This document shows, piece by piece, positions 47,783 through 64,000 of a stretch of 64,000 bases of DNA; position 1 is the first letter of the stretch, and each line of letters begins with the position of its first letter. The position numbers were made by a program, and so were the translations under genes. The DNA comes from a virus. The stretch spans positions 1 through 64,000 of the IMG/VR virus record IMGVR_UViG_3300027733_000050. One strand, given 5' to 3'. Below the pieces are notes generated by a model. That model ran no database searches and was not told where the DNA came from. It saw only the letters and a program-made list of their open reading frames with translations.

Positions 47783-47850
47783 TGGAGGATATAGGACTCG
47801 AACCTATTACTAGTGGATTACCACTGCTTTACCTGTTAAGCTAATCCTCC
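47783..47850 (-). ncRNA. tRNA-like element (degenerate/pseudo-tRNA) between the M15 peptidase and serine recombinase genes
   Basis: The minus strand reads GGAGGAT-TA-GCTT-AACAGGTA-AAGC-A-GTGG-TAAT-CCAC-TAGTA-ATAGG-TTCGAGT-CCTAT-ATCCTCC-A: perfect 7-bp acceptor, D-arm and T-arm, but the anticodon arm is about 4 nt short (4-nt loop). Confidence 0.45.
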
Positions 47851-52929: not shown

Positions 52930-53218
52930 TGTTTTTGTATTTTATAAATATTTCTAGTGCCATCTCAAATGGTATGTTGGTAAGGAAGACACTATCTATT
53001 CCCCTAACATAAATGTTAGCCAATCCATTATAATTTTCATCATCCTCTAACTCCACATTTCTAATGCAAGATATATCGTTCATGTCTATACTACATGTCA
53101 TCCATACATCGTTTACTATTCCCATGTCCTCCATGTACTTGCTATAGCAAGCTACCTTGCAGATCAATATGCTACCATACACCGATGGCTCTTCTAAATT
53201 AATTCTGTTCTTCCTCAT
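52922..53218 (-). CDS. hypothetical protein (98 aa)
   Basis: ORF track. Confidence 0.4.
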   Translation of the reverse strand: MRKNRINLEEPSVYGSILICKVACYSKYMEDMGIVNDVWMTCSIDMNDISCIRNVELEDDENYNGLANIYVRGIDSVFLTNIPFEMALEIFIKYKNNG

Positions 53219-53795
53219 CGTAGATTAAAATTTTATCGTTTATAACTCTATTTAATATTTTTCTGCTTACCTCCATGCACAACTCAGGTGATGCATCCTT
53301 GAACTCTTCGATCAGTATGTTGCATATTGTGTTGATATTGTTCAGTCCCCACTTCTTGAAGATGTTGTCGCTTAACTTATAATTCTTCAGCAACTGCAAC
53401 GTAAAGTCATCCATGCTCTTGCTAAGGTGCTTGTTGAACTGATAATGATCTTGCCCTGTAATATACAAACTCCTTACGTTAGCCGCACTGATATCCTTGC
53501 CTCTGATTCGAAACAACATGCTGATTGCCTCAGATGTTGCTCCCGATAACCTATGCAGTGAATAGGCTAACATTCTTCTGCCAGCAACACCGCTAGCCTT
53601 GTTGCTATTGGAATATACATCCATCAACGTATATCCACTCTCGATCAAGGTCATCTCGCCTGCCGTAAACAAGATCTCTAGATCCTCCTTTATTGACTTG
53701 CTACATGCCTTACATGTGCCTATCCCTATTCCCTTCTGCTGATGGTTAACCTTGCAGATGGAACATATCTTGTATGTGAATTCTTCTCTTGTCAT
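53199..53795 (-). CDS. DNA-binding protein with N-terminal C4 zinc finger and C-terminal helix-turn-helix (HTH) resembling DnaA domain IV
   Basis: CSIC..x13..CKAC; later GRRMLAYSLHRLSGATSEAISMLFRIRGKDISAANV resembles the DnaA C-terminal/LuxR-like HTH. Confidence 0.35.
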   Translation of the reverse strand: MTREEFTYKICSICKVNHQQKGIGIGTCKACSKSIKEDLEILFTAGEMTLIESGYTLMDVYSNSNKASGVAGRRMLAYSLHRLSGATSEAISMLFRIRGKDISAANVRSLYITGQDHYQFNKHLSKSMDDFTLQLLKNYKLSDNIFKKWGLNNINTICNILIEEFKDASPELCMEVSRKILNRVINDKILIYDEEEQN

Positions 53796-54124
53796 TATAA
53801 ATATCTTTTTTGTTGTTGTTTAATTATTACTGCCCTCCAAATTATCTTGAATGCATCCTCTTCGGTTATGTTGTCTGCATCGAACACAAACTTTGCTAAA
53901 CTCCATTGATTACGTTCGTTGTTCTGCAATAATCTTATTGCCTCTAGGATAACCCTTGCAGTTAAAACATAGGTAAATTCATCCTTGTCGTAGTACACCA
54001 AAACTCTTTTACCTTCCGACCATGACTTGTCCTTGTCCCAATCCTTTACGAATCGTATGCCCTTGCTCTCATCTAGCATTTCGAATATGCTATTGATGGT
54101 TAAGTCAGTATTTAAATCTCTCAT
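53795..54124 (-). CDS. hypothetical protein (109 aa)
   Basis: ORF track. Confidence 0.4.
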   Translation of the reverse strand: MRDLNTDLTINSIFEMLDESKGIRFVKDWDKDKSWSEGKRVLVYYDKDEFTYVLTARVILEAIRLLQNNERNQWSLAKFVFDADNITEEDAFKIIWRAVIIKQQQKRYL

Positions 54125-54238
54125 TCGTTAAACGATTTATAGATGAAGTAATAAGCAATGCCGACCTTGATAGCAATGGAACTATCATATTTATAACCTC
54201 CATAGATATAGACTACAGCCAAAGACAAGGTAACAATG

Positions 54239-54463
54239 TTAAGCAATACCTTCTCTAACGATAGTCTCATAGAACGGCTCTATTATAAAGTTAACACCAA
54301 TCTGCTCACCTAGTCTTCTAGCACGATCCTTATCTAGAGGTGCTGAGTTGTATCGGTCATTGCTGAATATCATCTCTCCGCCATTAGAGAGTTTGTCTTG
54401 TAGGTATTTATATTGCTGAGATTCTGCATCCCATATGGCTAACCTAAATTTGTCTTGTTTCAT
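54239..54463 (-). CDS. hypothetical small protein (74 aa)
   Basis: ORF track. Confidence 0.35.
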   Translation of the reverse strand: MKQDKFRLAIWDAESQQYKYLQDKLSNGGEMIFSNDRYNSAPLDKDRARRLGEQIGVNFIIEPFYETIVREGIA

Positions 54464-54542
54464 TTTTGTCTGAGTGCGTTAATTAAAATTCTGATTCCTT
54501 CAAATATTGCGATGGCTCCTACCATCATGATGAATGCAAATG

Positions 54543-54728
54543 CTATTTCTTCCATATCTTTACCTCCCCATTAGGATAAATTGTGTGACTAATTTTTAAC
54601 TTTTTACTTTGCTTTTTTTCGGATGCATCCGACATATTTAATGTGTTCAAATAGTCTTGATACAATGATGAGTTTACAAAAACTCTGTTCCACTTTGTAG
54701 AACTTAAATTTCTATCTAGATGTTTCAT
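54543..54728 (-). CDS. hypothetical small basic protein (61 aa)
   Basis: ORF track. Confidence 0.3.
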   Translation of the reverse strand: MKHLDRNLSSTKWNRVFVNSSLYQDYLNTLNMSDASEKKQSKKLKISHTIYPNGEVKIWKK

Positions 54729-54751
54729 GTGTTTATAATTATTAACAATTT

Positions 54752-54976
54752 TTATGCCAACTTTTTTAATATGTTCGTTTCCATTCCATAATGGATAGCC
54801 ACCTTATCGTAAGTAATCGCAGCCTCTCTCTCGCCTTCGGGCGTAGGATCAAAGTAACCTAGGTGCTTGGATACAACCGATCCGTTGTTGTTAACCCTGA
54901 TCCTAGCCTGATACTTGCGAATGTTTGGCTTGAATACTACACCCCTATACTGAGATGATTTATTCTTTACTCCCAT
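54752..54976 (-). CDS. stand-alone AP2/ERF-type DNA-binding domain protein
   Basis: SQYRGVVFKPNIRKYQARIRVNNNGSVVSKHLGYFDPTPEGEREAAITYDKVAIHYG matches the AP2 fold consensus (YRGV...W.A.I...G..V.LGTFDT.EEAA.AYD.AA...G). Confidence 0.7.
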   Translation of the reverse strand: MGVKNKSSQYRGVVFKPNIRKYQARIRVNNNGSVVSKHLGYFDPTPEGEREAAITYDKVAIHYGMETNILKKLA

Positions 54977-55221
54977 AGGTCTACCCTTTTATTGATGAAT
55001 ACAATCTCATCCCCACTCTCGTAAGCCATGAACACATTGTCGAAGTCTAGCAGATAACTTTGAATTAAGTTAATCTCTCCTAGGGTGAACTCGTGCGTTA
55101 CGTGGTTGTAGTCAACACGAAAGTTTGGTCTGCTACTATTGTGCTTGGTGAATACTCCTAATCCTTCTATAAGAATCTTCTTATATTCTTCGGTCTTAAT
55201 TATTTCTACTTTGTTGTTCAT
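54967..55221 (-). CDS. hypothetical small protein (84 aa)
   Basis: ORF track. Confidence 0.4.
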   Translation of the reverse strand: MNNKVEIIKTEEYKKILIEGLGVFTKHNSSRPNFRVDYNHVTHEFTLGEINLIQSYLLDFDNVFMAYESGDEIVFINKRVDLWE

Positions 55222-55520
55222 AGCGATTCAATTATTTCTTCCATTATTAATGATTCATTGCACTTGATATACTCTTCGATGACCTTATTCTCGGCATCGT
55301 TAAACGCATCCTTGTACCACCCAACAATCTCTAACTCCCAATAGTTGTTGCCTTGGTCATATCCCTCGCTACCCCAATACTCGTAGTGACCAATACCATC
55401 GTTGCATCTTTCCTTGGTGTAGAAAATAGTCAAGTCTCTTGACTTTACATACTCTCCCTCCGAATCGTAGACATCTAGGAAGTCTAGATCGGTCATCTCG
55501 TATTCATACTTTGATCTCAT
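55218..55520 (-). CDS. small acidic protein (100 aa)
   Basis: ORF track; D/E/Y-rich. Confidence 0.4.
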   Translation of the reverse strand: MRSKYEYEMTDLDFLDVYDSEGEYVKSRDLTIFYTKERCNDGIGHYEYWGSEGYDQGNNYWELEIVGWYKDAFNDAENKVIEEYIKCNESLIMEEIIESL

Positions 55521-55807
55521 GGGTGAAATGTTTTATTGATTTCCTTTTTAATCTGCTCTAGCCAGTAATCATCCCAACACATTCCCATATCCTCAACAAA
55601 CGATTCCCAATTGTCTTCCCTAGTGTGATATTGCTGATACAAGTCGCTACCAACAACCTTGTCAACAATATAAATTAGTATGTCTGCGATACCTAACGTA
55701 CCATGGAAGTTGTCTCTAATGTAACTACTACTACACAAGTCTTCCATATAAAGCCATCCCGACAATGTCAGTAATAACTTTTTGTCTTTTTCTAGTTGCT
55801 TATCCAT
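55517..55807 (-). CDS. small acidic protein (96 aa)
   Basis: ORF track. Confidence 0.4.
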   Translation of the reverse strand: MDKQLEKDKKLLLTLSGWLYMEDLCSSSYIRDNFHGTLGIADILIYIVDKVVGSDLYQQYHTREDNWESFVEDMGMCWDDYWLEQIKKEINKTFHP

Positions 55808-56162
55808 TTCTTTCCGATATTATATTGTAAATAATATTTTCTAAAATTGCTGACCATAAATCATCCTCGTATGATTCGTTGTATCTCTTGAGTACCTCTT
55901 CCATTTCTTCCACCGACAAATCCTTATTCAAAATGTTGCACACGTTTACCACATCCTCGTAGCTGATGGAAACAAGTGGCTTGATGCGTTGCTTGTAAAT
56001 AGTCTTTAGAGTATAATCTTTTTGTAGGTACACACACACCTCGTTGTATTCCTCGCAGTAGTGGATGTCAAAGATGTCTGCACTAAACCAAAATTCGGTC
56101 TCATCGGGAGTGATTTCATATCGATAATCTACTCCATTGTAATTGAAATTAATCGTTGTCAT
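55800..56162 (-). CDS. small acidic protein (120 aa)
   Basis: ORF track; preceded by the promoter-like motif at 56171-56185. Confidence 0.45.
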   Translation of the reverse strand: MTTINFNYNGVDYRYEITPDETEFWFSADIFDIHYCEEYNEVCVYLQKDYTLKTIYKQRIKPLVSISYEDVVNVCNILNKDLSVEEMEEVLKRYNESYEDDLWSAILENIIYNIISERNG

Positions 56163-56163
56163 A

Positions 56164-56556
56164 TTACATTAATTTAAGGGTTTCTAAAAGTTGTTTAAGT
56201 CCTATCACTTCGATGACGAATCTTCTATCGTCAATGTTACCATCCTTTAATTCTTGCTGAAGTCCATTAATCTGATTAATGACCATATCGTAAGGATGGG
56301 TGTTGTCAGTGTCAATGTCATTAATCAATTCCACATCTACAGGATCGTATTCTTCATCGGTAATAATACCATCACTATCCAAACAAATCCACCTAGGGAT
56401 GTAACCACATTGGTCATAGATGTCTCTTATAGACTTGTTAATCTTACCACTTGTCTTGAATTCGTTGAGTGTAGCATAGCCTAACTCTTTTATTTCCGAT
56501 GAGTCGCTATAGTACCAATCTATAAAACGACTTGCTAAAATTTTATTTGATTTCAT
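56164..56556 (-). CDS. small acidic protein (130 aa); the only gene here with a canonical Shine-Dalgarno sequence
   Basis: ORF track; AGGAGGA lies 7 nt upstream of the ATG on the coding strand. Confidence 0.45.
   Translation of the reverse strand: MKSNKILASRFIDWYYSDSSEIKELGYATLNEFKTSGKINKSIRDIYDQCGYIPRWICLDSDGIITDEEYDPVDVELINDIDTDNTHPYDMVINQINGLQQELKDGNIDDRRFVIEVIGLKQLLETLKLM
56171..56185 (-). promoter_or_regulatory. conserved early-gene motif copy (reverse strand, consensus TTTAACCCCTTAAAA) upstream of gene 55800-56162
   Basis: aatttaagggtttct on the + strand, 9 nt from the start codon. Confidence 0.4.
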
Positions 56557-56574
56557 AATGTGTCCTCCTATTAA

Positions 56575-57075
56575 TTATAAACTACGTTTTTTAAGATGAA
56601 CGATATGTTTTGCTATATCTTCCAACAACGCATCGGTATCTTCTAATAGATTATCTTGTCGGTAGTCAGCAGATAGTTCAAAGCCACCCTTGTGCAATCC
56701 ATCCTCGTTCTCGTACCGACCTAAATATTTATGTGCATACCATTCCTTATGCTCCCAACAATTATATCTTTTATCTAACTCTCCAATAAATCTTATAGTC
56801 AAGCGACAATAATCTTTATGCTCATACACTTCTAACTCGTAACCGAAGTTATCGAGTAGGTCGGTGACATCAGCCGTTAGCCGATGTAGTAACTCATCGT
56901 TGACAATCTTAGCCATCCTAGTCTGCTCTCTAAATTGTTCTTTCTTGATGGATATTTCATCTAGCTGACTATTGATGAAATTTAATAGGTCATTGTTGCT
57001 GACCTTCTTTGACTTGTTGATTCTATCGAATTCGCTTATCAGTGAGTTGATAATGTTTTGCTGATTGTTAGTCAT
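56575..57075 (-). CDS. hypothetical protein (166 aa)
   Basis: ORF track; motif at 57087-57101 upstream. Confidence 0.45.
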   Translation of the reverse strand: MTNNQQNIINSLISEFDRINKSKKVSNNDLLNFINSQLDEISIKKEQFREQTRMAKIVNDELLHRLTADVTDLLDNFGYELEVYEHKDYCRLTIRFIGELDKRYNCWEHKEWYAHKYLGRYENEDGLHKGGFELSADYRQDNLLEDTDALLEDIAKHIVHLKKRSL

Positions 57076-57086
57076 CTTGTTTATTG

Positions 57087-57101
57087 TTTTAAGGGGTTTA
57101 T
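57087..57101 (-). promoter_or_regulatory. conserved early-gene motif copy upstream of gene 56575-57075
   Basis: ttttaaggggtttat on the + strand. Confidence 0.5.
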
Positions 57102-57102
57102 A

Positions 57103-57654
57103 TTATTGTTCAGTTCTTACAAAGTATTTGTTGCAAAATTCTACTACCTTTTTCACTACCTCTTCACTGCACTCTAGGTGGATTACCTTGTCATTCATAA
57201 ACTCTACACCATCGGGATTAACTCTGAAGTATAAACTTCTTGCATGAACATTGTATCCGTATTCGCTATCTACACTTCCATTACGAATTTGAATATCATC
57301 AATGTTAAAATACTTAGATACTTCTGAAATCAATTCTTTTACCCACGCAAGATGGCTTGCACTTTTTAAAGCATCATCATTGCTCTTAAGATACTTTTTT
57401 ACTAGAGTGTTTACTGAATCTGAACTTGGTTTCATAACTTTTAGTTTTAAGGGGTTAACTGCTTTTAAGAAATTTACGATGCAGTCATATTCCGAATGCC
57501 TTGCATCATTGTACTTGCTTTCGGAGAAGTCAGCATACAAATGCTCTGCTACTTCCCATTGGATGTCTAGTGCCTCATCCTTGTCTATGTTACCGAAATT
57601 AATTGCTAGGTGTAACATCGTGTACACTGAATAGCCATCTTGTGATTGTTTCAT
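57103..57654 (-). CDS. hypothetical protein (183 aa), possibly with a nested in-frame internal start
   Basis: ORF track; the promoter-like motif occurs both upstream (57657-57682) and internally (57445-57459) 10 nt before an in-frame ATG (MKPSSD). Confidence 0.45.
   Translation of the reverse strand: MKQSQDGYSVYTMLHLAINFGNIDKDEALDIQWEVAEHLYADFSESKYNDARHSEYDCIVNFLKAVNPLKLKVMKPSSDSVNTLVKKYLKSNDDALKSASHLAWVKELISEVSKYFNIDDIQIRNGSVDSEYGYNVHARSLYFRVNPDGVEFMNDKVIHLECSEEVVKKVVEFCNKYFVRTEQ
57445..57459 (-). promoter_or_regulatory. conserved early-gene motif copy inside ORF 57103-57654, upstream of an internal in-frame ATG
   Basis: ttttaaggggttaac on the + strand, 10 nt from the internal ATG at 57433-57435. 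Confidence 0.45.
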
Positions 57655-57656
57655 AA

Positions 57657-57682
57657 TTTTAAGGGGTTTTAAGGGGTTAAAC
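57657..57682 (-). promoter_or_regulatory. tandem double copy of the conserved early-gene motif upstream of gene 57103-57654
   Basis: ttttaaggggttttaaggggttaaac on the + strand. Confidence 0.5.
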
Positions 57683-57702
57683 TTATTCTATTAACGATAC
57701 TT

Positions 57703-58089
57703 CTAGCAATATATTACTTCTCCGAAGAAAATTGTTTGGATGATTACATCAGTGTCAGACACATCGTATTCCTCATTCAACACATTCATCAACTGATCGA
57801 TCGGTGCGTTGTTCATCCTTTCGTGGATGTCAGCTAGTGTTACGTAAAACACTTCTTCGCACTCTAGGTCATAGATGCCTAGCTTACCACCATCCTTTAG
57901 CATTTCCATCAGCACATCTTCGTAGCAAGGTGTGTTACCTTTGTACATTTCCATCAATTTACTCTTGCTCTGCTCGTAGGATTTCTTGCCATATATCCAC
58001 TGCAACGAGTGAATGTGAATGTCATTGTCGCATAGGCAATTGAAGAATACATCTTCTGCTTGTGCTTTACTTAATTGATACTTTGTCAT
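57703..58089 (-). CDS. hypothetical acidic protein (128 aa)
   Basis: ORF track; motif at 58100-58114 upstream. Confidence 0.45.
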   Translation of the reverse strand: MTKYQLSKAQAEDVFFNCLCDNDIHIHSLQWIYGKKSYEQSKSKLMEMYKGNTPCYEDVLMEMLKDGGKLGIYDLECEEVFYVTLADIHERMNNAPIDQLMNVLNEEYDVSDTDVIIQTIFFGEVIYC

Positions 58090-58099
58090 AAGATTATAG

Positions 58100-58114
58100 T
58101 TTTAAGGGGTTAAT
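58100..58114 (-). promoter_or_regulatory. conserved early-gene motif copy upstream of gene 57703-58089
   Basis: ttttaaggggttaat on the + strand. Confidence 0.5.
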
Positions 58115-58115
58115 G

Positions 58116-58340
58116 TTATTTAGAATAATGTAAGGAGCAATTACCACTCTCCTTGTTAGTGTAGATGTTGCATATCCATGCTTTGTAAAAACCATCAGCA
58201 CACGTGTACACTAGCTGATTGGTGTATGTTTCCGATGGATGATTGCCTTTGTCCTCTGATAGCACAAAGCCGTTGCTGATTAGATGTTTGATTTTAGAAT
58301 CTAAAGAATCAATGTCAAACCAAATTGAATTAGTGTCCAT
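58116..58340 (-). CDS. hypothetical small protein (74 aa)
   Basis: ORF track; degenerate motif at 58350-58364. Confidence 0.4.
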   Translation of the reverse strand: MDTNSIWFDIDSLDSKIKHLISNGFVLSEDKGNHPSETYTNQLVYTCADGFYKAWICNIYTNKESGNCSLHYSK

Positions 58341-58349
58341 AAGAATAAA

Positions 58350-58364
58350 GATTAAAGGTTAATA
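58350..58364 (-). promoter_or_regulatory. degenerate motif copy upstream of gene 58116-58340
   Basis: gattaaaggttaata on the + strand. Confidence 0.3.
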
Positions 58365-58474
58365 TTATTGTTTGTTAAAGGGAACTATCATTATTTCGTA
58401 TACCTAGGTTTAGCTTGTAAGCTACCCATAGGCAGAGGGGAATCATAACCTCTCCACCTAGGATTGCCATCATA

Positions 58475-58924
58475 CTAATTAATTTCCCAATCGAAATTCT
58501 CAACCATCTCATCAGTGTCATCATAATACAATTGTCCGTTGTTAATGTTTCTAGTAAAGGCTCTTCCGTTATACTTACCACTAGCAAAGAAGTGTGCATC
58601 CAAGTCCACATAGATTTCCATATCTAGGTAATTCCATTTGTCATCAGTAACTTGGAACTTCATCTTTGTACCTACCAACGATGCCACTAACTTGGTGTCG
58701 GTTTCTGCGTGTGGTTGTAACTTAAACACATCAATTACCTTGTATGCCCTAACATTATTGAACTCCATATTCTCGATGGTCATTGATAGGTATTGCCTAG
58801 TGTCATCTATCTGCTCTACACTATCTCCAACATTATTTTTAGATGCATCGTAGATTAATTGCTGACCTTTGCTTGGTGCAGTCATCCCTAGGATAACCGC
58901 TACCACTACTAATAATTTCTTCAT
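58475..58924 (-). CDS. secreted protein (149 aa)
   Basis: Signal peptide MKKLLVVVAVILGMTAPSKG. Confidence 0.45.
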   Translation of the reverse strand: MKKLLVVVAVILGMTAPSKGQQLIYDASKNNVGDSVEQIDDTRQYLSMTIENMEFNNVRAYKVIDVFKLQPHAETDTKLVASLVGTKMKFQVTDDKWNYLDMEIYVDLDAHFFASGKYNGRAFTRNINNGQLYYDDTDEMVENFDWEIN

Positions 58925-58965
58925 AGGATTAAATTTATTTATTGGTTAAACTGATTACTGATTAA

Positions 58966-59478
58966 TTATTGTTTACTCAACGCAGTGCCCCAGTTCGTGA
59001 ACACCACCTCGCCTCTGCTATTGCGTAGTCGGAACTTATACTTCGCACCTTGATACCATCCGCACATATTAATTGCACCATTGCCGTTACCCTGCGTTGT
59101 AAGGTCAGTGAACGTGTGGCCTAGGTATCTACCTGTCACATCTCCAACAAACCTAGTGCCATCCCATCGGTATACGATGGTAAATTCTGCACCACTCACT
59201 GCATCAGTAAAGCGGAATGTCTTACCAATTACTAGGTTAGGTGTAGGCATCTGACCATACACTAAATTCTGCACCTTCCACTTGTGGCAATACACCACAT
59301 TCAACCCTAGTGTGTCGCATCGGAAGTCTAACGTGTAGTCTAGACTATCTACCACGTTGCTAGTGTTGGATGCTCGGTTGCTAGGTTGCACCATACCCAA
59401 CTCATCATTTTCTTTCGTGCATGATGTAGCCATAACTACCATAGTTAACATTGCTACTAATTTCATTACTTGTTTCAT
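58966..59478 (-). CDS. lipoprotein (170 aa)
   Basis: Signal with lipobox MVVMATSC; motif at 59482-59503 upstream. Confidence 0.45.
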   Translation of the reverse strand: MKQVMKLVAMLTMVVMATSCTKENDELGMVQPSNRASNTSNVVDSLDYTLDFRCDTLGLNVVYCHKWKVQNLVYGQMPTPNLVIGKTFRFTDAVSGAEFTIVYRWDGTRFVGDVTGRYLGHTFTDLTTQGNGNGAINMCGWYQGAKYKFRLRNSRGEVVFTNWGTALSKQ

Positions 59479-59481
59479 AAC

Positions 59482-59503
59482 TTTAAGGGATTAAGGGTTA
59501 AAT
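59482..59503 (-). promoter_or_regulatory. double (degenerate) motif copy upstream of gene 58966-59478
   Basis: tttaagggattaagggttaaat on the + strand. Confidence 0.45.
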
Positions 59504-59955
59504 TAATTATTTTGTTCTTCGATGCAACTTCTTATTGCCTCTTCAATAGCATCTATTCTATTCCAACTTTTTAAAGTCTCTTCATTATCTCCATTGAATG
59601 TTTGTAACTCTTCATCAGTGTAACTTTCAAATCTTATTTTTAAAGAGTCATATGCTGATACTAGCACCGCACCTCTACCATCTAGGTGTTCGCTCTCGTA
59701 CCACTCATCATCATCCAATTCTTCCCACTGAGTGTGGTAGTACATTTCCTCATCGAAGAAGAAATCTAGTAACTCTTCATCATCATTGCAGTCAGTAGAT
59801 AACTTGCCTTTGCAGTTAACCCACTCTATTGTGCGTAGGTGTTCTAGCAAGTGTGCCCTAGTGCTGAAGTACATTTCTCCATCTCCGAAACAAAAGCCTT
59901 CGTTGATTCCGTTGTTTGTTGCATCGCATCTGCGAGCGAATTTAAATCTTTTCAT
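59503..59955 (-). CDS. highly acidic protein (150 aa)
   Basis: ORF track; D/E/W-rich (DNA-mimic-like composition); motif at 59965-59979 upstream. Confidence 0.45.
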   Translation of the reverse strand: MKRFKFARRCDATNNGINEGFCFGDGEMYFSTRAHLLEHLRTIEWVNCKGKLSTDCNDDEELLDFFFDEEMYYHTQWEELDDDEWYESEHLDGRGAVLVSAYDSLKIRFESYTDEELQTFNGDNEETLKSWNRIDAIEEAIRSCIEEQNN

Positions 59956-59964
59956 AACGATATA

Positions 59965-59979
59965 TTTTTAGGGGTTTAT
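59965..59979 (-). promoter_or_regulatory. motif copy upstream of gene 59503-59955
   Basis: tttttaggggtttat on the + strand. Confidence 0.45.
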
Positions 59980-60006
59980 ATATTACTAACGTGATTGCTT
60001 ATCCGT

Positions 60007-60327
60007 TTATTGTGCCTTGGGTAAAGAATATCCTTGGCTTTCTAAATTATCAAACATTACTTTGAATGCCTTATACATGGACTTCTTATAAGCCTCAGTT
60101 TGATGCTCGAAAATTCTGCTATACATCATGCTTGTGATTGTTACAAACTGCATCTCGGCTTGGTATGAAAGGAAAGCATAGGTCTCGCCTCTAGATAAAC
60201 TATCTACCAATTCTTGTAGACTACCGATTGCTAACACTTCCTTGTTTGGATGCGTGAAATTCTTTTCTGCTGATGCTTTGATGTGTGCATCTGCAACCGC
60301 TTTGATTTCTTTTGTGATACGTTTCAT
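60007..60327 (-). CDS. hypothetical protein (106 aa)
   Basis: ORF track; motif at 60332-60351 upstream. Confidence 0.45.
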   Translation of the reverse strand: MKRITKEIKAVADAHIKASAEKNFTHPNKEVLAIGSLQELVDSLSRGETYAFLSYQAEMQFVTITSMMYSRIFEHQTEAYKKSMYKAFKVMFDNLESQGYSLPKAQ

Positions 60328-60331
60328 AACC

Positions 60332-60351
60332 TAGGGGATTAAGGGGTTTAT
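60332..60351 (-). promoter_or_regulatory. double motif copy upstream of gene 60007-60327
   Basis: taggggattaaggggtttat on the + strand. Confidence 0.45.
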
Positions 60352-60386
60352 ACTACTAACGTGAATTGTGAATTGTTTATTGTGTA

Positions 60387-60581
60387 CTATTGTAACTTTG
60401 CTATTTGCTCTAGTGTTGGCTTGTTGCCATTAACTCTAACGTAGTATTCGCTGAATGTCCACTTACGTTTAAAGTTGCGTGCATGGTCGAATGATTTGAA
60501 TACCTTGGTGATGCTAGTTGACCATCCATTTCTACCCTCGTTTACAAAGGTGATTTCAATGTTTAGATCGGTGGTGTTCAT
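60387..60581 (-). CDS. hypothetical small protein (64 aa)
   Basis: ORF track. Confidence 0.35.
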   Translation of the reverse strand: MNTTDLNIEITFVNEGRNGWSTSITKVFKSFDHARNFKRKWTFSEYYVRVNGNKPTLEQIAKLQ

Positions 60582-60778
60582 AGGTCATTCAGTTTATTTG
60601 TTATCATAATTGCTAGCACTGATGATGTCCCTAGGGTAAACAATAAGAACATCTCTAGCATCGGTGTGTTCGGTGTCACCTTTGAGTTTGCTACATCTAC
60701 GATTAGGAATAGTGATGCTGATGCTAATACTACCAATCCAATTGCGATTAGTGTGCCGATTAATTTGTCTAGTCTCAT
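60578..60778 (-). CDS. small membrane protein (66 aa)
   Basis: Two hydrophobic helices (LIGTLIAIGLVVLASASLFLIV; LLFTLGTSSVLAIMI). Confidence 0.4.
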   Translation of the reverse strand: MRLDKLIGTLIAIGLVVLASASLFLIVDVANSKVTPNTPMLEMFLLFTLGTSSVLAIMITNKLNDL

Positions 60779-60782
60779 GATA

Positions 60783-60960
60783 TTAGTCGTGTAAAGGGTT
60801 GATTAAATTATTTTCGTAGCGGTAAGCCTCTTCTTTAGCTATAATTTTACCAAGGATAACCAAGGCTTTTACCTTTTCTTCAGTGCTTACATTGTCTGAT
60901 TTAGCTATGTTCTTTAGTAACTGAACATAAAGGTCGATTTGCTTTTTTAATTGCTCATTC
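60783..60960 (-). CDS. small helical protein (59 aa), not in the ORF track
   Basis: ATG at 60960 (reverse strand), TAA at 60783-60785; MNEQLKKQIDLYVQLLKNIAKSDNVSTEEKVKALVILGKIIAKEEAYRYENNLINPLHD; motif at 60973-60987 upstream. Confidence 0.35.
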
Positions 60961-60972
60961 ATAACATTAAGA

Positions 60973-60987
60973 TTTTAAGGGTTAAAC
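60973..60987 (-). promoter_or_regulatory. motif copy upstream of small ORF 60783-60960
   Basis: ttttaagggttaaac on the + strand. Confidence 0.45.
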
Positions 60988-60997
60988 TATATTCTAG

Positions 60998-61040
60998 AGC
61001 GGAGTGAGGGTTCGAACCTCTTATCCCTAATGACTCCGCT
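60998..61040 (-). other. tRNA-like minihelix (acceptor stem AGCGGAG/CTCCGCT plus T-arm-like GAGG-TTCGAAC-CCTC) with no D or anticodon arms
   Basis: The minus strand reads AGCGGAG-TCATTAGGGATA-AGAGG-TTCGAAC-CCTCA-CTCCGCT; the T-loop consensus is kept but only 12 nt sit where about 40 nt of D/anticodon arms would be; located between two minus-strand genes. Confidence 0.35.
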
Positions 61041-61062
61041 GACCACCTTTAATTCACTCGTA

Positions 61063-61530
61063 CTATTTACTATTTACAAATAGCCTATCTTTATGTTTCA
61101 TTTGTACACTATAGCTAGTCACTCTAGGTACTTCAACCTCTGACATATGTTCTAGGTCAAAGATTGATTTTTGTGAGTTAGCCATACCTAAACTTAAGGC
61201 ACTTTTAAGTGACCATTTTCTATCGAAATCGTCATCCTTTTCTAGCAACATTACAACATCGAAGTGGTAAACTTTGTCGCTATCTAACCACCCACCGAAA
61301 GCTAATTTGATGTCTAGTTTCTTCCAATCTGACTCAACTTCCATCATTTCATTGTATACTTGGATGCAGTGTTCAGCACCCTCTAGGTTGTGACTATTCA
61401 AAGTCTGTTTTACTCCGACTACGAAGTAGTTACCGCTTACATCGTTGCCTTGTGCATCCATTGTGAAACCCATCGGGTTTTGTTCTGCTTTACGCATCAT
61501 GTCTGATGCAGTTACTGAAGTTGTGTTCAT
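61063..61530 (-). CDS. hypothetical protein (155 aa)
   Basis: ORF track; motif at 61540-61553 upstream. Confidence 0.45.
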   Translation of the reverse strand: MNTTSVTASDMMRKAEQNPMGFTMDAQGNDVSGNYFVVGVKQTLNSHNLEGAEHCIQVYNEMMEVESDWKKLDIKLAFGGWLDSDKVYHFDVVMLLEKDDDFDRKWSLKSALSLGMANSQKSIFDLEHMSEVEVPRVTSYSVQMKHKDRLFVNSK

Positions 61531-61539
61531 GATTATAAG

Positions 61540-61553
61540 TATTAAGGGTTAAT
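61540..61553 (-). promoter_or_regulatory. motif copy upstream of gene 61063-61530
   Basis: tattaagggttaat on the + strand. Confidence 0.4.
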
Positions 61554-61580
61554 AATTAGTTAACGTGATTACTAGTTGGT

Positions 61581-61796
61581 TTATTGCTTGCCTACTGACA
61601 TTGCACCTAGGATTGCGACTACAAACTGAAGACTAAATACTATAACTGCTGACTGCTCTGTTACTGCTCCAAGTAATCCAATCGTTGCTACTAGTGTGCA
61701 AGTGATTGTTAGTTTAAGTTTGTTTGTCATGGCGTTGTTATCGTTGGTGTTCGGTATAATAACAGCGAAACTACATCGGATATTGTGCTTTGTCAA
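61581..61796 (-). CDS. small membrane protein (71 aa)
   Basis: Hydrophobic helices (LTITCTLVATIGLLGAV; VIVFSLQFVVAILGAM). Confidence 0.35.
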   Translation of the reverse strand: MTKHNIRCSFAVIIPNTNDNNAMTNKLKLTITCTLVATIGLLGAVTEQSAVIVFSLQFVVAILGAMSVGKQ

Positions 61797-61889
61797 GCAT
61801 TATTTTGTAAGTGATTGATTATCAGCATAAAAACTTTCAATAATTCTTTACAATGTGGTTGTGTGTATGGATGCAATGAACTAAGTCTA

Positions 61890-62520
61890 TATTACTGCGT
61901 GCGTGTACACTCGCAGGATACCATTACGTGCGTGCGTGCGTATGTGCGTGCGTTCTTTGTTAATAGGTTGCAATAAATTCTATGTGCCAAAATCGTGCCA
62001 AACTATTGCTATTCCCAAAATGGGAAACTTGTCCCAAAATGGGAATTTACGTTCATTTATTTTCATTTATACGTGTGGTTGTCACAACATTTGTACGTAC
62101 AACAGTTGTATATACAACAATCGATTGCTTGTCTACTGCGTGTGCGTGTGCGTTTGTCTACTGCGTGCGATTGTCTACTGCGTGTGCGTGCGTGACTTGA
62201 TGCAAGGCTTGATAGGTGTATTAAGCCTAGGTAATTTGTCTCGTAAGCCTAGGTGTAACGCAATGAGCCTTAATCATTTGCATCTGCATCTAGGAGTGGA
62301 AATCGGATGGCTTTTGTTTTTACTTTCTTCGTTGGTGGCAACTAACGTCAACACATAACGCTTTTGCATTTGCCTCTGCGTTCGTGTGTGTGGAGGGGGT
62401 GTTTTTTTTCTTCCTTGCGTCCACCTATATGCTACGTATACTAGATCACACCTGCAATTTTAGAATTTTTAGAGGGCATTACCCTGGCCTGGGTGGGGGG
62501 GAATTGTTTTACAGGGGAGG
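61890..62520. repeat. GC-enriched non-coding repeat island: (CG/TG)n alternating tracts, 3x GTCTACTGCGTG, 2x palindromic TTCCCAAAATGGGAA, 2x TAAGCCTAGGT, 2x TTCATTTAT, TTGTATATACAA palindrome and G7 tracts
   Basis: Seen directly; no credible ORF (the track ORFs here are Cys/Val-rich artefacts of the repeats); composition differs from the flanking AT-rich DNA. Confidence 0.55.
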
Positions 62521-62684
62521 ACATTCTATTAGCCTTTATAGTGGTTATAGGAAGTATTGTATATCAGTTACTTGTATTGTAGCCAGTATAAATATAGCAT
62601 GGATCTTTAAACTATAGATAACATTAGTAATCAATTACTTACAAAACAGTAGTATGATCTGAGGAATAAGTTTAAACGTAATTA

Positions 62685-63165
62685 ATAACTGATAATCAAT
62701 AACTTATATATACAACATTACATAACTGAAAGTAAAAGTATAGTACATAGTAAAAATATAAAAATCGTTAGTAAAAGGTATAAAATACATTATTGTATAA
62801 AATAAGGGGGTATAGGGGTAATATAGGGAATCCTGGGTTTCGATATACAGCATGGCCCTAGATATACTGATAATCAGCTACTAATTCAAAAATAAGATCG
62901 AGTTGCCAGAAAAACCCGAAAATTAACTCATTGATTATCAGGGAGAAATTCCATGAAAAGATGTTCTCCATGAGTATCAATTAGTTACGTAAAAAACAGG
63001 CGTTAGGTATAATTCTGGCACACAAATTGCATGCAGATCCAGCAAGAAACGACTGCAAAAACGATGAAAACAGCGTTCCATGGTATAATTCTGGCACACG
63101 ATTTGCAATAAAAATCTAAAAACAAAGTAAAAAAAATAACCAAATTCACAACTAATTGATTATCA
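62685..63165 (+). promoter_or_regulatory. control region upstream of the RHH gene: four copies of the palindrome CTGAT(A/T)ATCAG (about 62687, 62868, 62931, 63156) and a duplicated 25-bp promoter-like element GGTATAATTCTGGCACAC(A/G)A(A/T)TTGCA (63009, 63085)
   Basis: Seen directly; TATAAT-containing direct repeats 76 bp apart; palindromic operators flanking them; the last operator overlaps the RHH start codon. Confidence 0.45.
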
Positions 63166-63166
63166 G

Positions 63167-63688
63167 ATGGAAGTAAGAACAACAGTAGTTTTTGATCAGG
63201 AAGAGTACCTGAGCTTAAAAAAGCGTAGCGGTGAGCTTAACATGTCAGTAAGCAGATTCCTTAGGTATCTGTACTCGACTTATGGCGAAAGACCGATTAA
63301 CAAGTCAAGGAGCCGACTTAAAAGGATTAGCGGCAACATTACCAACAGGGATCTTAGGAAGATCTTAAAGACATGCCCTGAGTATTCCAACATCGAAACC
63401 TTTAGCCCGATTGGAAATGGGGTAAGGTTTAAGGAACTGAAGGATGGTGTTTACACCACGCACCTGGGCGATGTGTACAGACACAGCTTGGGGGGTGGCG
63501 GATATTGCTACACCAAGAAAAGGTACTTCAACCCAGAGAACAACGATGAGGTAACCCACCATTACAAGAAGAAGTACCCACACGAGCTATTCTTCTACGG
63601 ACAGAAGGGCAAGGCATTCGCAGCCGTTCTTTATGGAGAGAGCTTTGACTATTCCTTGGAATCATTTAAAAACATATTAGAAAAATGA
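63167..63688 (+). CDS. ribbon-helix-helix (CopG/Arc-like) N-terminal domain protein (173 aa)
   Basis: TTVVFDQEEYLSLKKRSGELNMSVSRFLRYL = beta strand plus two helices of an RHH fold; C-terminal domain unknown. Confidence 0.45.
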   Translation: MEVRTTVVFDQEEYLSLKKRSGELNMSVSRFLRYLYSTYGERPINKSRSRLKRISGNITNRDLRKILKTCPEYSNIETFSPIGNGVRFKELKDGVYTTHLGDVYRHSLGGGGYCYTKKRYFNPENNDEVTHHYKKKYPHELFFYGQKGKAFAAVLYGESFDYSLESFKNILEK

Positions 63689-63891
63689 ACACCAAAAAAA
63701 GATCATTGGCAAAGACTGTAACATACCGACTGATTAGTTCTGCTATAGGATTTGTGGTTGTTTGGATGTTATCTGACAACGTAAAGACTGGGGCCATGTT
63801 TTCACTGGCCGAAGTTATTTATAAACCGTTGCAATACTATATCCACGAAAGGGTATGGCAGCATGTAAAATGGGGGAAGAATGATGAATAA
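63685..63891 (+). CDS. small membrane protein (68 aa)
   Basis: ORF track; hydrophobic helix LISSAIGFVVVWML. Confidence 0.4.
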   Translation: MNTKKRSLAKTVTYRLISSAIGFVVVWMLSDNVKTGAMFSLAEVIYKPLQYYIHERVWQHVKWGKNDE

Positions 63892-64000
63892 AATATTAAT
63901 ACTCTTACTATTGATTTGTAGTAATGTACATGCCCAAAAAGTAAAGCACTGGTCTTTTGGCCCTCAGCTTGGTTATACTTATGTAACTCAGACACAAAGA
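63881..64000 (+). CDS. 5' end of a secreted outer-membrane beta-barrel-like protein gene (partial), host-like
   Basis: MMNKILILLLLICSNVHAQ signal peptide then KVKHWSFGPQLGYTYV, typical of Bacteroidetes OM beta-barrel (OmpA-like/porin family) N-termini; runs off the window. Confidence 0.35.
   Translation, partial: MMNKILILLLLICSNVHAQKVKHWSFGPQLGYTYVTQTQR

What the first reader, a model, noticed from the sequence alone, without database searches (positions are those of the whole stretch)
61860..62620. GC-enriched, repeat-dense, gene-free island (Z-DNA-like (CG)n tracts, triple GTCTACTGCGTG, paired palindromes TTCCCAAAATGGGAA, G7 runs)
This region is compositionally distinct from the rest of the AT-rich window and packed with direct repeats and protein-binding-like palindromes. 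Possible roles include a packaging (pac/cos) or terminal-repeat region, a second origin, a partition site, or a prophage-host junction (attL/attR), given that host-like genes follow to the right.
Basis: seen in the sequence. Interest (0 to 1): 0.55.

Follow-up and report, generated by a model that had tools for sequence, protein, structure and literature searches.

The report
Conserved non-coding phage replication-control region
The repeat-packed stretch is the GC-richer half of a 1.4-kb gene-free control region that a small group of uncultivated freshwater phages keeps as well conserved as their genes; it most likely holds the replication origin and the switches for the genes on either side, and it is not a junction with a host chromosome.

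Summary
The repeats are real. The island has the highest repeat density in the window, but its GC enrichment is modest (0.414 vs 0.366). It is non-coding.

The window is a 69,487-nt circular-mapping phage genome with a crAss-type muzzle protein, probably infecting Bacteroidota. The genes to the right are the phage's own replication operon (RHH protein ... PrimPol/SF3-helicase), not host genes, so attL/attR is refuted.

The island is the left half of a 1.4-kb non-coding region (61768-63166) at the point where leftward small genes and the rightward replication operon diverge. This region is 74-75% identical in relatives whose flanking gene is only 67% identical.

Individual elements survive in phages whose replicase is only 52-58% identical:
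- the paired TTCCCAAAATGGGAA palindromes
- the TTGTA..ACAACA palindromes
- GGGGGTGTTTTTT
- the alternating purine-pyrimidine tracts
- a 24-nt hairpin with compensatory changes

Next to the island lies the least stable 200 bp of the window, studded with an 18-nt palindromic repeat, followed by sigma-54-like promoters.

Best reading (about 0.5): a replication origin combined with an operator/promoter hub. Rivals are a purely transcriptional hub, non-coding RNA, or genome termini. No function was demonstrated.

The parts
61768..61797 (-). Leftmost conserved block. On the minus strand it reads TTGACA (61796-61791), a 17-nt spacer, then TAGTTT (61773-61768). This is a sigma-70-like promoter candidate for the leftward small-gene block.
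   Evidence: Read from the sequence. Invariant in the window, L007 and L012, and nearly so in L009. Not found in L027 or L028. Function is inferred.
61808..61825 (+). Copy 1 of the 18-nt repeat TAAsTnATTGATTATCAG, with palindromic core CTGATWATCAG.
   Evidence: (D3, I3, I5). The exact 23-mer TTTTGTAAGTGATTGATTATCAG is kept in the distant relative L028.
61896..61953 (.). Left pair of GC-rich alternating purine-pyrimidine (Z-DNA-prone) tracts, (TGCG/GTGC)n, 15 and 29 nt long.
   Evidence: Tract length varies between relatives through 12-13-nt insertions. Such tracts are enriched in the homologous non-coding region in 6 of 7 lineages.
61984..62000 (-). Two TGGCAC hexamers 11 nt apart on the minus strand (TGGCACGATTTTGGCAC). 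One mismatch from the sigma-54 pattern TGGCAC-N5-TTGC.
   Evidence: Both hexamers change together to TGGTAC in L012.
62012..62046 (.). Paired palindromes TTCCCAAAATGGGAA and (G)TCCCAAAATGGGAA, 19 nt centre to centre.
   Evidence: D12. Kept in L027 (3160-3194) and L028 (2765-2798), whose replicase is 52-54% identical. Both copies change CCC to CTC together in L012 and L015.
62079..62119 (.). Three palindromic units: TTGTCACAAC, TTGTACGTACAACA and TTGTATATACAACA.
   Evidence: D4, I10. Nearly invariant in the close relatives. L027 carries TTGTATGCACAACA twice at 3219-3257.
62129..62194 (+). Three direct repeats TTGTCTACTGCGTG fused to the right pair of alternating purine-pyrimidine tracts.
   Evidence: (D1). 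Copy number varies between relatives: 3 in the window, fewer in L012 and L015.
62205..62228 (+). 24-nt hairpin AGGCTTGATA-GGTG-TATTAAGCCT, with a 10-bp stem and a 4-nt loop.
   Evidence: Present in all nine lineages examined. 92.9% of cells are paired, three pairs change on both sides, and the covariation score is 0.40 against 0.235 for shuffles (3 of 500 reach it). The G.U pairs fit only the + strand.
62356..62375 (.). Invariant block TAACGCTTTTGCATTTGCCT.
   Evidence: Identical in all close and mid-distance relatives. No secondary-structure signal.
62395..62409 (+). G5 run followed by TG and a T8 run (GGGGGTGTTTTTTTT).
   Evidence: GGGGGTGTTTTTT is exact in L023 and L027 and near-exact in L028. 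It lies 168-189 nt after the hairpin in every lineage.
62431..62451 (.). Invariant block GCTACGTATACTAGATCACAC.
   Evidence: Used as a probe, it found only relatives of this phage in the metagenome collection (L018, L019), plus one chance 18-mer hit in the genome collection.
62490..62501 (+). TGGGTGGGGGGG, containing the G7 run.
   Evidence: GGTGGGGGGAA is conserved in the close and mid-distance relatives.
62606..62805 (.). AT-rich stretch and candidate DNA-unwinding element.
   Evidence: The least stable 200-bp duplex of the 64-kb window: nearest-neighbour dG -210.7, against a mean of -250.5 and sd of 10.3. It contains two copies of the 18-nt repeat on the minus strand, at 62628-62646 and 62689-62706.
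62806..62837 (+). G-rich block GGGGGTATAGGGGTAATATAGGGAATCCTGGG, which matches the formal G-quadruplex motif.
   Evidence: Read from the sequence. Kept in L015 and, as GGGGGGGTAGGGGG, in L023. The G-runs are broken in L012.
62867..62885 (-). Copy of the 18-nt repeat with an exact CTGATAATCAG palindrome.
62924..62990 (.). 67-nt imperfect palindrome made of two inverted 18-nt repeats around GGAGAA...TTCTCC.
   Evidence: Strongest consensus-fold signal in the region, and equal on both strands (z -6.9 and -4.9), which points to a DNA palindrome. The arms are kept in L023.
63006..63107 (+). Two 26-nt direct repeats, each with an exact sigma-54-type motif TGGCAC-N5-TTGCA (63016-63031 and 63092-63107). 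The second is preceded by TGGTATAAT, an extended -10-like sequence.
   Evidence: D5. With one mismatch allowed there are 10 matches in the window against 2.5 expected; the only two exact matches are these. Kept in L012, L015 and L023. The -12 GC becomes GT in L007 and L009, and the motif is absent in L027.
63149..63166 (+). Last copy of the 18-nt repeat, ending at the base before the ATG of the first replication-operon gene.
   Evidence: Invariant in all close and mid-distance relatives.
63167..63688 (+). First gene of the rightward replication operon. It encodes a 173-aa protein with an N-terminal ribbon-helix-helix (NikA-like) DNA-binding domain.
   Evidence: 8 of 9 family members match PF21983, best E 3.3e-5, below the curated cut-off. 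Its C-terminal domain is kept in L023, L027 and L028. It is followed by DUF2061, two small genes, a conserved 144-aa protein and the 880-aa PrimPol + DUF5906 helicase.

Best explanation
The island is the GC-richer, binding-site-rich half of a 1.4-kb non-coding control region (61768-63166) in a 69.5-kb circular-mapping phage. The region lies where the leftward small-gene block and the rightward replication operon (RHH protein ... PrimPol/SF3 helicase) diverge. I read the whole region as the phage's replication origin combined with the operator/promoter hub for both gene blocks.

Shown:
- It is non-coding.
- It is under purifying selection at least as strong as that on the neighbouring gene.
- It is built from at least six families of short palindromes or direct repeats.
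- Several of these survive, in mostly the same order, in phages whose replicase is only 52-58% identical.
- It contains a hairpin kept by compensatory changes.
- It abuts the most easily melted 200 bp of the window.

Inferred mechanism:
- Phage DNA-binding proteins (the RHH protein, the conserved 144-aa protein, the C-terminal part of the PrimPol-helicase), and possibly host factors, load on the palindromes and repeats.
- The adjacent AT-rich stretch, studded with the 18-nt repeat, melts.
- The helicase-primase then primes on the exposed strand, possibly at the conserved + strand hairpin, in the manner of the ssi sites of RSF1010.
- The same sites, including the repeat copy that abuts the ATG, let the RHH protein throttle the replication operon, as in copG-repB and orf56-orf904 cassettes.
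- The alternating purine-pyrimidine tracts that bracket the palindrome cluster would flip to Z-DNA under the negative supercoiling made by divergent transcription. They could act as a supercoil buffer or sensor. This last step is the most speculative.
For: Context:
- The closed phage map and the replication operon to the right.
- A gene-free gap of 1.1-1.9 kb at the same strand switch in every relative that keeps this layout.

Selection:
- 74-75% nucleotide identity to L012 and L015, against 67% for the adjacent gene.
- No codon signature.

Origin-like anatomy:
- Repeat density is the maximum of the window.
- The 18-nt repeat has 7 copies, found only here. Six of them account for 6 of the 15 WATCAANNNNTTR matches in the window, within 2% of its length.
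- The least stable 200 bp of the window is at 62606-62805.
- A GC-rich module lies next to an AT-rich module.

Deep conservation of elements and of most of their order in L023, L027 and L028.

Concerted change of both copies of a repeat (TGGCAC to TGGTAC, CCC to CTC) points to protein recognition.

Hairpin covariation.

The replicase is a PrimPol + SF3 helicase, a class that acts as origin-specific initiator in pRN1, where it shares an operon with a transcriptional repressor (PMC4234260). RSF1010 RepB' primes at hairpin ssi sites inside oriV (PMC8567376).

In the prototypic crAssphage an origin is predicted directly upstream of the first forward-strand gene (PMC10983915).
Against: - No replication data of any kind. 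GC skew flips here, but it simply follows gene orientation.
- No DnaA boxes.
- The repeats are not regularly phased like classical iterons: spacings are 25 and 17 nt.
- In pRN1 the origin is a stem-loop downstream of the replicase gene, not upstream. Here the replicase gene is followed by the next gene after 11 nt.
- Every feature listed is also compatible with a purely transcriptional control region.
- In the crAss-like phage phi14:2, long intergenic regions in the early region are heavily transcribed non-coding RNA genes.
- Z-DNA formation and binding by any named protein are untested.
- L028 has only one long alternating tract.
Confidence: 0.5

Rival explanations
1. A purely transcriptional control hub. 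The palindromes would be operators or enhancer (UAS) sites for divergent promoters. These include sigma-54-type promoters firing rightward (63016, 63092) and leftward (61986-62000, minus strand). The origin would lie elsewhere.
For: - Two exact TGGCAC-N5-TTGCA motifs upstream of the operon, conserved in L012, L015 and L023.
- A third, one-mismatch copy in the island with palindromes 20-130 nt upstream of it, and the 67-nt palindrome 30-90 nt upstream of the rightward pair. This is the usual enhancer geometry of sigma-54 promoters.
- An operator-like repeat abutting the ATG, and an RHH regulator as first gene.
- A minus-strand TTGACA-17-TAGTTT at the left edge.
Against: - The -12 GC is GT in L007 and L009 (second copy) and in L012 (island copy). 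The motif is absent in L027.
- No GAFTGA activator is encoded by the phage.
- 1.4 kb with six or more site families, plus the window's least stable duplex, is more than divergent promoters usually need.
- The only other gene-free stretches noted (about 0.3-0.6 kb) were not examined for origin features.
- A hub and an origin are not mutually exclusive.
Confidence: 0.25
2. One or more non-coding RNA genes transcribed rightward across the island. This would resemble the abundant long non-coding RNAs from the long intergenic regions of crAss-like phage phi14:2.
For: - The phi14:2 precedent (10.1101/2020.03.07.982082). One of those regions holds a tmRNA by ARAGORN.
- The 24-nt hairpin keeps pairing through compensatory and G.U changes that fit only the + strand.
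- Consensus-fold z-scores are lower on the + strand in the island (-3.6, -4.2 and -5.4, against -1.0, -2.3 and -2.7).
- Hairpin-to-G5T8 spacing is fixed at 168-189 nt.
Against: - No Rfam family at the gathering or E<=10 level, and no tRNA or tmRNA.
- RNAalifold on nine lineages finds only isolated hairpins and no larger fold.
- The conserved palindromes keep their sequence rather than just their pairing. Their central spacer flips orientation between lineages (AAAAT and ATTTT), as expected for symmetric double-stranded sites.
- Tract lengths vary by slippage.
- No conserved promoter or terminator brackets the island.
Confidence: 0.12
3. The physical ends of the virion DNA (a direct terminal repeat or pac/cos region) lie in or next to the island.
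For: - Five independent short contigs end inside 61739-62112.
- In many podoviruses the ends sit next to the early region.
- The crAssphage preprint reports a roughly 2x-coverage region with excess read ends, interpreted as DTRs; this report did not locate it relative to the predicted origins.
Against: - The contig ends fall at different, non-homologous positions, and each lies in a palindrome or low-complexity tract, where de Bruijn assemblers break.
- Genome-length contigs of relatives (68,173, 68,764 and 69,665 nt) and the 40.5-kb Logan contig run through the region and break elsewhere.
- No read data were available.
Confidence: 0.08
4. A prophage-host junction (attL/attR), or a plasmid-type partition centromere.
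For: - An RHH protein gene next to repeat arrays resembles type Ib/II centromere-binding-protein loci.
Against: - The right flank is the phage replication module, and the map closes on itself.
- No integrase or host gene was seen among the products searched or listed with Pfam hits on either side.
- No ParA, ParM or TubZ-type NTPase in the operon.
- The only canonical Walker-A hit in the genome is a 196-aa protein elsewhere.
Confidence: 0.03

Closest known systems
IncQ plasmid RSF1010 oriV (RepC iterons, GC-rich and AT-rich segments, ssiA/ssiB hairpins primed by the AEP-fold primase RepB')
   Same: - Modular layout: a repeat array, a GC-rich module, an AT-rich easily melted module and a conserved hairpin.
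- It is served by an element-encoded primase of the archaeo-eukaryotic type together with a helicase (the oriV layout is from my own knowledge of Scherzinger/Honda 1991 and was not read here).
   Different: - No sequence similarity.
- The repeats here are several families of short palindromes rather than one 20-bp iteron.
- The region is about 3-4 times larger.
- Only one covarying hairpin was found, not an inverted pair.
- Priming at the hairpin is untested.
pRN1-type replication cassette (orf56 transcriptional repressor/copy-number control protein + orf904 PrimPol/SF3 helicase) and similar phage replicases
   Same: A small DNA-binding regulator gene (here RHH-like) heads an operon that ends in a PrimPol + SF3-helicase replicase. 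For that class, stem-loop or palindromic DNA is proposed as the origin, including in phages (PMC4234260).
   Different: - In pRN1 the essential stem-loop lies downstream of the replicase gene. Here there is no non-coding DNA downstream (an 11-nt gap), and the palindromes lie upstream.
- Four extra small genes separate the regulator and the replicase.
- The RHH assignment rests on sub-threshold Pfam hits.
Strand-switch non-coding regions of crAss-like phages (predicted origin upstream of the first forward-strand gene in Carjivirus communis; long intergenic non-coding RNA/tmRNA region of Cellulophaga phage phi14:2)
   Same: A phage with a crAss-type muzzle protein. It has a long gene-free region in the early part of the genome, here at the point where gene orientation flips, and next to replication or early genes.
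   Different: - No nucleotide similarity to any deposited phage.
- The genome is 69.5 kb rather than about 100 kb.
- The replicase is a PrimPol-helicase rather than the replication genes of known crAss phages.
- No tmRNA or Rfam RNA here.
- No DFDxD virion RNA polymerase motif was found in the giant proteins.
Sigma-54 (RpoN) enhancer-dependent promoters
   Same: Exact TGGCAC-N5-TTGCA twice, with large palindromes 30-190 nt upstream. This matches the -24/-12 spacing and enhancer geometry.
   Different: - The -12 GC is not universally conserved in relatives.
- No activator ATPase is encoded by the phage.
- Host RpoN use is unknown.
- This concerns the right edge of the region, plus one degenerate copy in the island.

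Membership tests
Iteron-type replication origin | Several copies of a short repeat clustered in non-coding DNA | tested here: met
   The 18-nt repeat has 7 copies, found only in 61808-63166. There are also three TTGTCTACTGCGTG repeats, two TTCCC..GGGAA palindromes and three TTGT..ACAA units.
Iteron-type replication origin | Adjacent AT-rich DNA-unwinding element | tested here: met
   62606-62805 is the least stable 200-bp duplex of the window, about 3.9 sd from the mean. The relatives' least stable stretch lies at the homologous place.
Iteron-type replication origin | Location next to the gene of the initiator or replicase | tested here: met
   The region is directly upstream of the operon that ends in the PrimPol + SF3 helicase gene. 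The arrangement is conserved in L007, L009, L012, L015, L023, L027 and L028.
Iteron-type replication origin | Initiator binds the repeats and replication starts there | not testable with these tools
   Needs EMSA or footprinting and origin mapping.
Iteron-type replication origin | DnaA boxes (present in many origins, not all) | tested here: not met
   No TTATCCACA with up to 1 mismatch in 61500-63200.
Known RNA families (Rfam 15), tRNA, tmRNA | Match to a covariance model or to ARAGORN | tested here: not met
   Nothing at gathering score. Only chance-level hits at E up to 10. ARAGORN found nothing in the window.
Structured non-coding RNA (unclassified) | Conserved secondary structure supported by covariation over most of its length | tested here: not met
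   Only one 24-nt hairpin covaries. RNAalifold over nine lineages gives isolated hairpins and a covariation term of -0.91. Window z-scores are mostly between -3 and 0.
Prophage attachment junction (attL/attR) | Host genes on one side | tested here: not met
   The right flank is the phage replication module, and the map closes at 69,487 nt.
Terminal repeat / pac / cos region | Read-start pile-up, 2x coverage or consistent contig termini | tested here: inconclusive
   No reads were available. Contig ends inside the region are at non-homologous positions in palindromes, and genome-length contigs pass through.
Plasmid partition centromere (type Ib/II) | Centromere-binding protein gene paired with a ParA/ParM NTPase gene | tested here: not met
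   An RHH-like gene is present, but there is no NTPase in the operon.
Sigma-54 dependent promoter | GG at -24 and GC at -12 with fixed 10-nt spacing | tested here: met
   Exact TGGCAC-N5-TTGCA at 63016-63031 and 63092-63107.
Sigma-54 dependent promoter | Conservation of both elements in relatives, and a cognate AAA+ activator | tested here: inconclusive
   Kept in L012, L015 and L023. GC becomes GT in L007 and L009, and the motif is absent in L027. No GAFTGA protein in the phage. The host is unknown.
Z-DNA-forming sequence | Alternating purine-pyrimidine tract, GC-rich, 12 nt or longer | tested here: met
   Tracts of 15, 29, 17 and 16 nt. Four lie inside the region, against two in the other 62.6 kb. 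The same enrichment is seen in 6 of 7 lineages.
Z-DNA-forming sequence | Adoption of the left-handed form under supercoiling | not testable with these tools
   Needs chemical, antibody or Z-alpha probing of supercoiled DNA.
G-quadruplex motif | Four G-runs of 3 or more with loops of 1-7 nt, conserved | tested here: inconclusive
   62806-62837 fits the motif in the window and L015, but the runs are broken in L012. The G7 run in the island is conserved, but its partner runs are not.
pRN1-type replication cassette | Regulator gene plus PrimPol/SF3 helicase gene in one operon | tested here: met
   PF09250 and PF19263 on the 880-aa protein. NikA-like RHH hits in 8 of 9 members of the first-gene family, below the Pfam cut-off.
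pRN1-type replication cassette | Essential stem-loop origin downstream of the replicase gene | tested here: not met
   Only 11 nt separate the replicase gene from the next gene.

The most novel reading that the evidence does not exclude
The conserved alternating purine-pyrimidine tracts that bracket the palindrome cluster are a functional Z-DNA switch. Negative supercoiling from the two divergent transcription units would flip them. That would set the superhelical state, and so the melting, of the neighbouring unwinding element, and the extrusion of the conserved hairpins and palindromes. Early transcription would thereby be coupled to origin firing by a PrimPol-helicase. This would be a selected, phylogenetically conserved role for Z-DNA in a bacteriophage origin.
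Probability: 0.1. Interest if true: 0.75.

Novelty: new variant of a known kind. Interest (0 to 1): 0.4.

Why it matters
This clade of freshwater phages has a crAss-type muzzle protein, probably infects Bacteroidota, and has no cultured member and no DNA match among deposited phages.

The finding pinpoints the roughly 1.4 kb that most likely carries the clade's origin and master switches. It also supplies a short list of conserved sites, and candidate binding proteins encoded next door, that can be tested directly.

If the origin reading holds, it would be a rare mapped origin for a phage PrimPol/SF3-helicase replicon. It could also serve as a starting part for replicons in Bacteroidota.

The conserved Z-DNA-prone tracts and the covarying hairpin are the unusual elements. 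Otherwise this is the expected kind of feature at the expected place, and no function was demonstrated here.

Tried and rejected
- blastn of the region against 50,697 deposited phages: no match. tblastn of the portal protein: no match.
- Rfam at gathering score and at E<=10, and ARAGORN: nothing in the region.
- IMG/VR scans with the 173-aa protein, the 19-mer block and the 23-mer repeat: nothing. The flanking 155-aa protein gave only two weak, unrelated hits.
- IMG/VR scan with the paired palindrome: three contigs, but there the motif encodes an SQNGN peptide repeat inside a 567-aa ORF. This is coincidence.
- Genome-collection scan: one hit in a Chitinophagaceae MAG that is only the 18-mer itself, so chance.
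- A profile search with the 173-aa family found no further members.
- The AlphaFold model of the 173-aa protein had pLDDT 45 and was unusable, so no fold search was run. A PDB sequence search found nothing.
- The 151-aa ORF 61903-62358 was rejected as a gene.
- DnaA boxes: none. Phage-encoded HU/IHF signature: none. Phage-encoded sigma-54 activator: none. DFDxD virion RNA polymerase motif in the giant proteins: none. PHROG and Pfam searches gave no polymerase assignment.
- The Bacteroidota -7 box TAnnTTTG is essentially absent from the region. The one minus-strand copy at 62887-62894 is not conserved.
- The intrinsic-terminator reading of the G5T8 element was rejected, because the preceding hairpin is not conserved in L023.
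- The distant phages MW202828 and phi38:1, and the 44%-identity relative L025, have no comparable region near their PrimPol genes.
- GC skew cannot be used as origin evidence here, because it tracks gene orientation.
Full report
**What is in the sequence.** The listed repeats exist.
- (TT)GTCTACTGCGTG occurs three times in 62129-62190, and TCCCAAAATGGGAA twice at 62013-62045.
- There are four GC-rich alternating purine-pyrimidine tracts of 15-29 nt. They include the longest in the window and are four of its five GC-richest.
- There is one G7 run at 62495-62501.
- TGCGTG occurs 11 times in 300 nt, all on the + strand, out of 24 in the whole window.
- Direct-repeat density (58, against a mean of 4.6) is the maximum of the window, and CpG is not depleted here (1.0 against 0.57).
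- GC enrichment is modest: 0.414 against 0.366, the 94th percentile.
- The only long ORF (61903-62358), which some pipelines call as a gene, is not coding. Substitutions are even over codon positions and relatives carry frame-shifting indels.

**Context.** The window is a phage.
- It encodes a terminase, a portal protein, an exonuclease and virion proteins, and a 1571-aa protein with the Crassvirus muzzle domain (E 1e-46).
- A Logan contig is 100% identical to window 53167-64000. It continues for 5,487 nt and re-enters window 1-4201, so the map is a 69,487-nt circle.
- The genes right of the island are a 173-aa RHH-like protein, DUF2061, two small proteins, a conserved 144-aa protein and an 880-aa PrimPol + DUF5906 (SF3-type) helicase. 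They are phage replication genes, not host genes.
- Late genes carry the Bacteroidota -7 box TAnnTTTG just before their ATG.
- The more distant PrimPol homologues sit in Chitinophagaceae genomes. The host is therefore probably a freshwater member of the Bacteroidota.
- The region lies exactly where a leftward block of small genes (44.7-61.8 kb) and the rightward replication operon diverge.

**Conservation.**
- The 173-aa protein has only eight homologue clusters in 5.8 billion proteins.
- Each relative that could be fetched with enough flank has a 1.9-kb gene-free gap at the same place.
- The stretch 61768-63166 aligns throughout.
- In the two most distant of these relatives (L012 and L015) it is 74-75% identical, while the adjacent gene is 67% identical at the nucleotide level and 57-62% at the protein level. 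The left-hand genes partly turn over.
- Through the PrimPol I reached a wider circle (L023, L027, L028; replicase 52-58% identical; GC 43-48%). All three have a 1.1-1.9-kb gap at the same strand switch.
- These gaps still carry, in mostly the same order:
  - alternating purine-pyrimidine tracts
  - TTCCCAAAATGGGAA twice
  - TTGTA...ACAACA repeats
  - a GGCTT... hairpin
  - GGGGGTGTTTTTT, 168-189 nt after the hairpin
  - an AT-rich stretch with the 18-nt repeat (one 23-mer is identical between the window and L028)
  - the GAGAAATTC palindrome
  - in L023, TGGCAC-N5-TTGCA
- Alternating tracts are enriched in the gap in 6 of 7 lineages.

**Anatomy of the whole unit, left to right.**
1. A minus-strand TTGACA-17-TAGTTT (61768-61797).
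2. Copy 1 of the 18-nt repeat.
3. The left alternating tracts.
4. Two minus-strand TGGCAC hexamers.
5. The paired TTCCC...GGGAA palindromes.
6. Three TTGT...ACAA palindromes.
7. The GTCTACTGCGTG repeats, fused to the right alternating tracts.
8. The 24-nt hairpin.
9. Two invariant blocks, on either side of the G5T8 element.
10. The G7 run.
11. The AT-rich stretch 62606-62805. This is the least stable 200 bp of the window (dG -210.7, against -250.5 +/- 10.3).
12. More copies of the 18-nt repeat, a G-rich block and a 67-nt palindrome.
13. Two exact sigma-54-type motifs.
14. A last repeat copy that ends at the ATG.

The 18-nt repeat has a palindromic core, CTGATWATCAG. Six of its seven copies match the E. 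coli IHF consensus, giving 6 of the 15 matches in the window within 2% of its length. I found no phage HU/IHF gene, so the IHF fit is a resemblance only.

**RNA or DNA?**
- No Rfam family, tRNA or tmRNA matches.
- Sliding consensus folds give their strongest signal at the 67-nt palindrome, equally on both strands. In the island they give only local hairpins, somewhat better on the + strand.
- One element does behave like a structure: the hairpin at 62205-62228. It keeps 92.9% pairing over seven distinct sequences. Three pairs change on both sides, and its G.U pairs fit only the + strand (3 of 500 shuffles reach the score). With so few, related sequences this is suggestive rather than proof.
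- RNAalifold over the hairpin-to-G5T8 module in nine lineages finds nothing larger.
- The other palindromes keep their sequence, not merely their pairing.
- Both copies of a repeat change together (TGGCAC to TGGTAC; CCC to CTC).
- The central spacer of the TTCCC palindrome flips between AAAAT and ATTTT.
- Tract lengths vary by slippage.

These are the habits of double-stranded protein-binding sites. I therefore rank a large structured RNA low. The precedent of phi14:2 keeps it alive: there, long intergenic regions are abundantly transcribed, and one holds a tmRNA by ARAGORN.

**Origin reading.** The points in favour are:
- the position next to a PrimPol/SF3-helicase operon headed by an RHH gene
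- several repeat families
- GC-rich and AT-rich modules side by side
- the window's easiest-melting DNA
- a conserved single-strand-specific hairpin

Together these match the logic of element-encoded origins served by archaeo-eukaryotic-type primases. RSF1010 oriV has ssi hairpins primed by RepB'. pRN1 has a repressor gene plus a PrimPol-helicase gene in one operon, with a stem-loop origin, a design the authors also see in phages. In the prototypic crAssphage an origin is predicted directly upstream of the first forward-strand gene.

The points against are:
- there are no replication data
- there are no DnaA boxes
- the repeat phasing is irregular
- the pRN1 origin lies downstream of its replicase gene, whereas here no non-coding DNA follows the replicase gene
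- all features also fit a purely transcriptional hub

The sigma-54-type motifs with palindromes at enhancer distance argue for the hub reading. However, their -12 element is not uniformly conserved, and no activator is encoded by the phage.

**Termini, junction, partition.**
- The att reading is excluded by the closed map.
- Several short contigs end inside 61739-62112. They end at different, non-homologous positions, each inside a palindrome or low-complexity tract. Genome-length contigs cross the region. I attribute these ends to assembly, but only reads can settle the question.
- No partition NTPase is present.

**Verdict.** The host-junction idea is wrong. The origin idea is the best supported, at about 0.5, with a transcription-only hub at about 0.25. 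The remainder is split between non-coding RNA, termini and other readings.

This is the expected kind of element at the expected place in a phage genome. Its conserved Z-DNA-prone tracts, its covarying hairpin and its depth of conservation in a clade with no cultured member make it a moderately interesting new variant. It is not a new kind of system.

Noticed in passing
window 63006-63107 (+); also 61986-62000 (-): Two exact sigma-54-type promoter motifs TGGCAC-N5-TTGCA sit inside a 26-nt direct repeat, 136 and 60 nt upstream of the replication operon. A one-mismatch copy lies on the minus strand in the island. With one mismatch allowed, the window has 10 matches against 2.5 expected, several of them just upstream of genes (for example 1798-1812, before the exonuclease gene). 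A phage using host RpoN would be unusual.
   Followed up: partly
window 57089-61567, minus strand: The small leftward genes carry AACCCCTTAA 5-15 nt before their ATG. The three nearest the control region also have CACGTTA 8-10 nt further upstream (3 matches against 0.03 expected). This is probably the promoter or leader signal of this gene class, and it is unlike the Bacteroidota -7 box of the late genes.
   Followed up: partly
window 7216, 9620, 14435, 21862, 25117, 42011 (+): The Bacteroidota-type -7 promoter box TAnnTTTG lies a few bases before the ATG of several structural genes. This points to a Bacteroidota host and to host-polymerase late transcription.
   Followed up: no
L007 4121-4197 (-), L012 4113-4189 (-); window about 60975-61040 (-): The relatives carry, at the left edge of the non-coding gap, a tRNA that ARAGORN reports as 'tRNA-???' with a four-base anticodon, gtga (an 8-nt anticodon loop). 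It is a possible frameshift-suppressor-like tRNA. The window has only a T-arm/acceptor remnant at the corresponding place.
   Followed up: partly
window 47783-47850 (-): A tRNA is found by Rfam (54.9 bits) but not by ARAGORN.
   Followed up: no
L021 (NC_021806, Cellulophaga phage phi14:2) 4031-4500 (+): ARAGORN calls a tmRNA (tag GSSVQKLAMVA) inside the long intergenic region that Drobysheva et al. reported as an abundantly transcribed non-coding RNA of unknown function. Rfam at gathering score does not detect it.
   Followed up: partly
window 33266-42010, 27412-32751, 16961-21676 (+): Three giant virion-module proteins of 2914, 1779 and 1571 aa. Only the last is assignable (crAss muzzle). No DFDxD polymerase motif was found, so it is open whether this phage injects its own RNA polymerase.
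   Followed up: partly
L007 (JGI contig Ga0480322_0000019, 106,817 nt): This contig is about 1.5 genome lengths, and the look-up reported one further similar place for this gene that was not shown; together these suggest a concatemeric or circular assembly rather than a prophage.
   Followed up: no
window 62806-62837 (+): A formal G-quadruplex motif (G5-4-G4-7-G3-6-G3) lies in the AT-rich half. It is conserved in L015, but its G-runs are broken in L012.
   Followed up: partly
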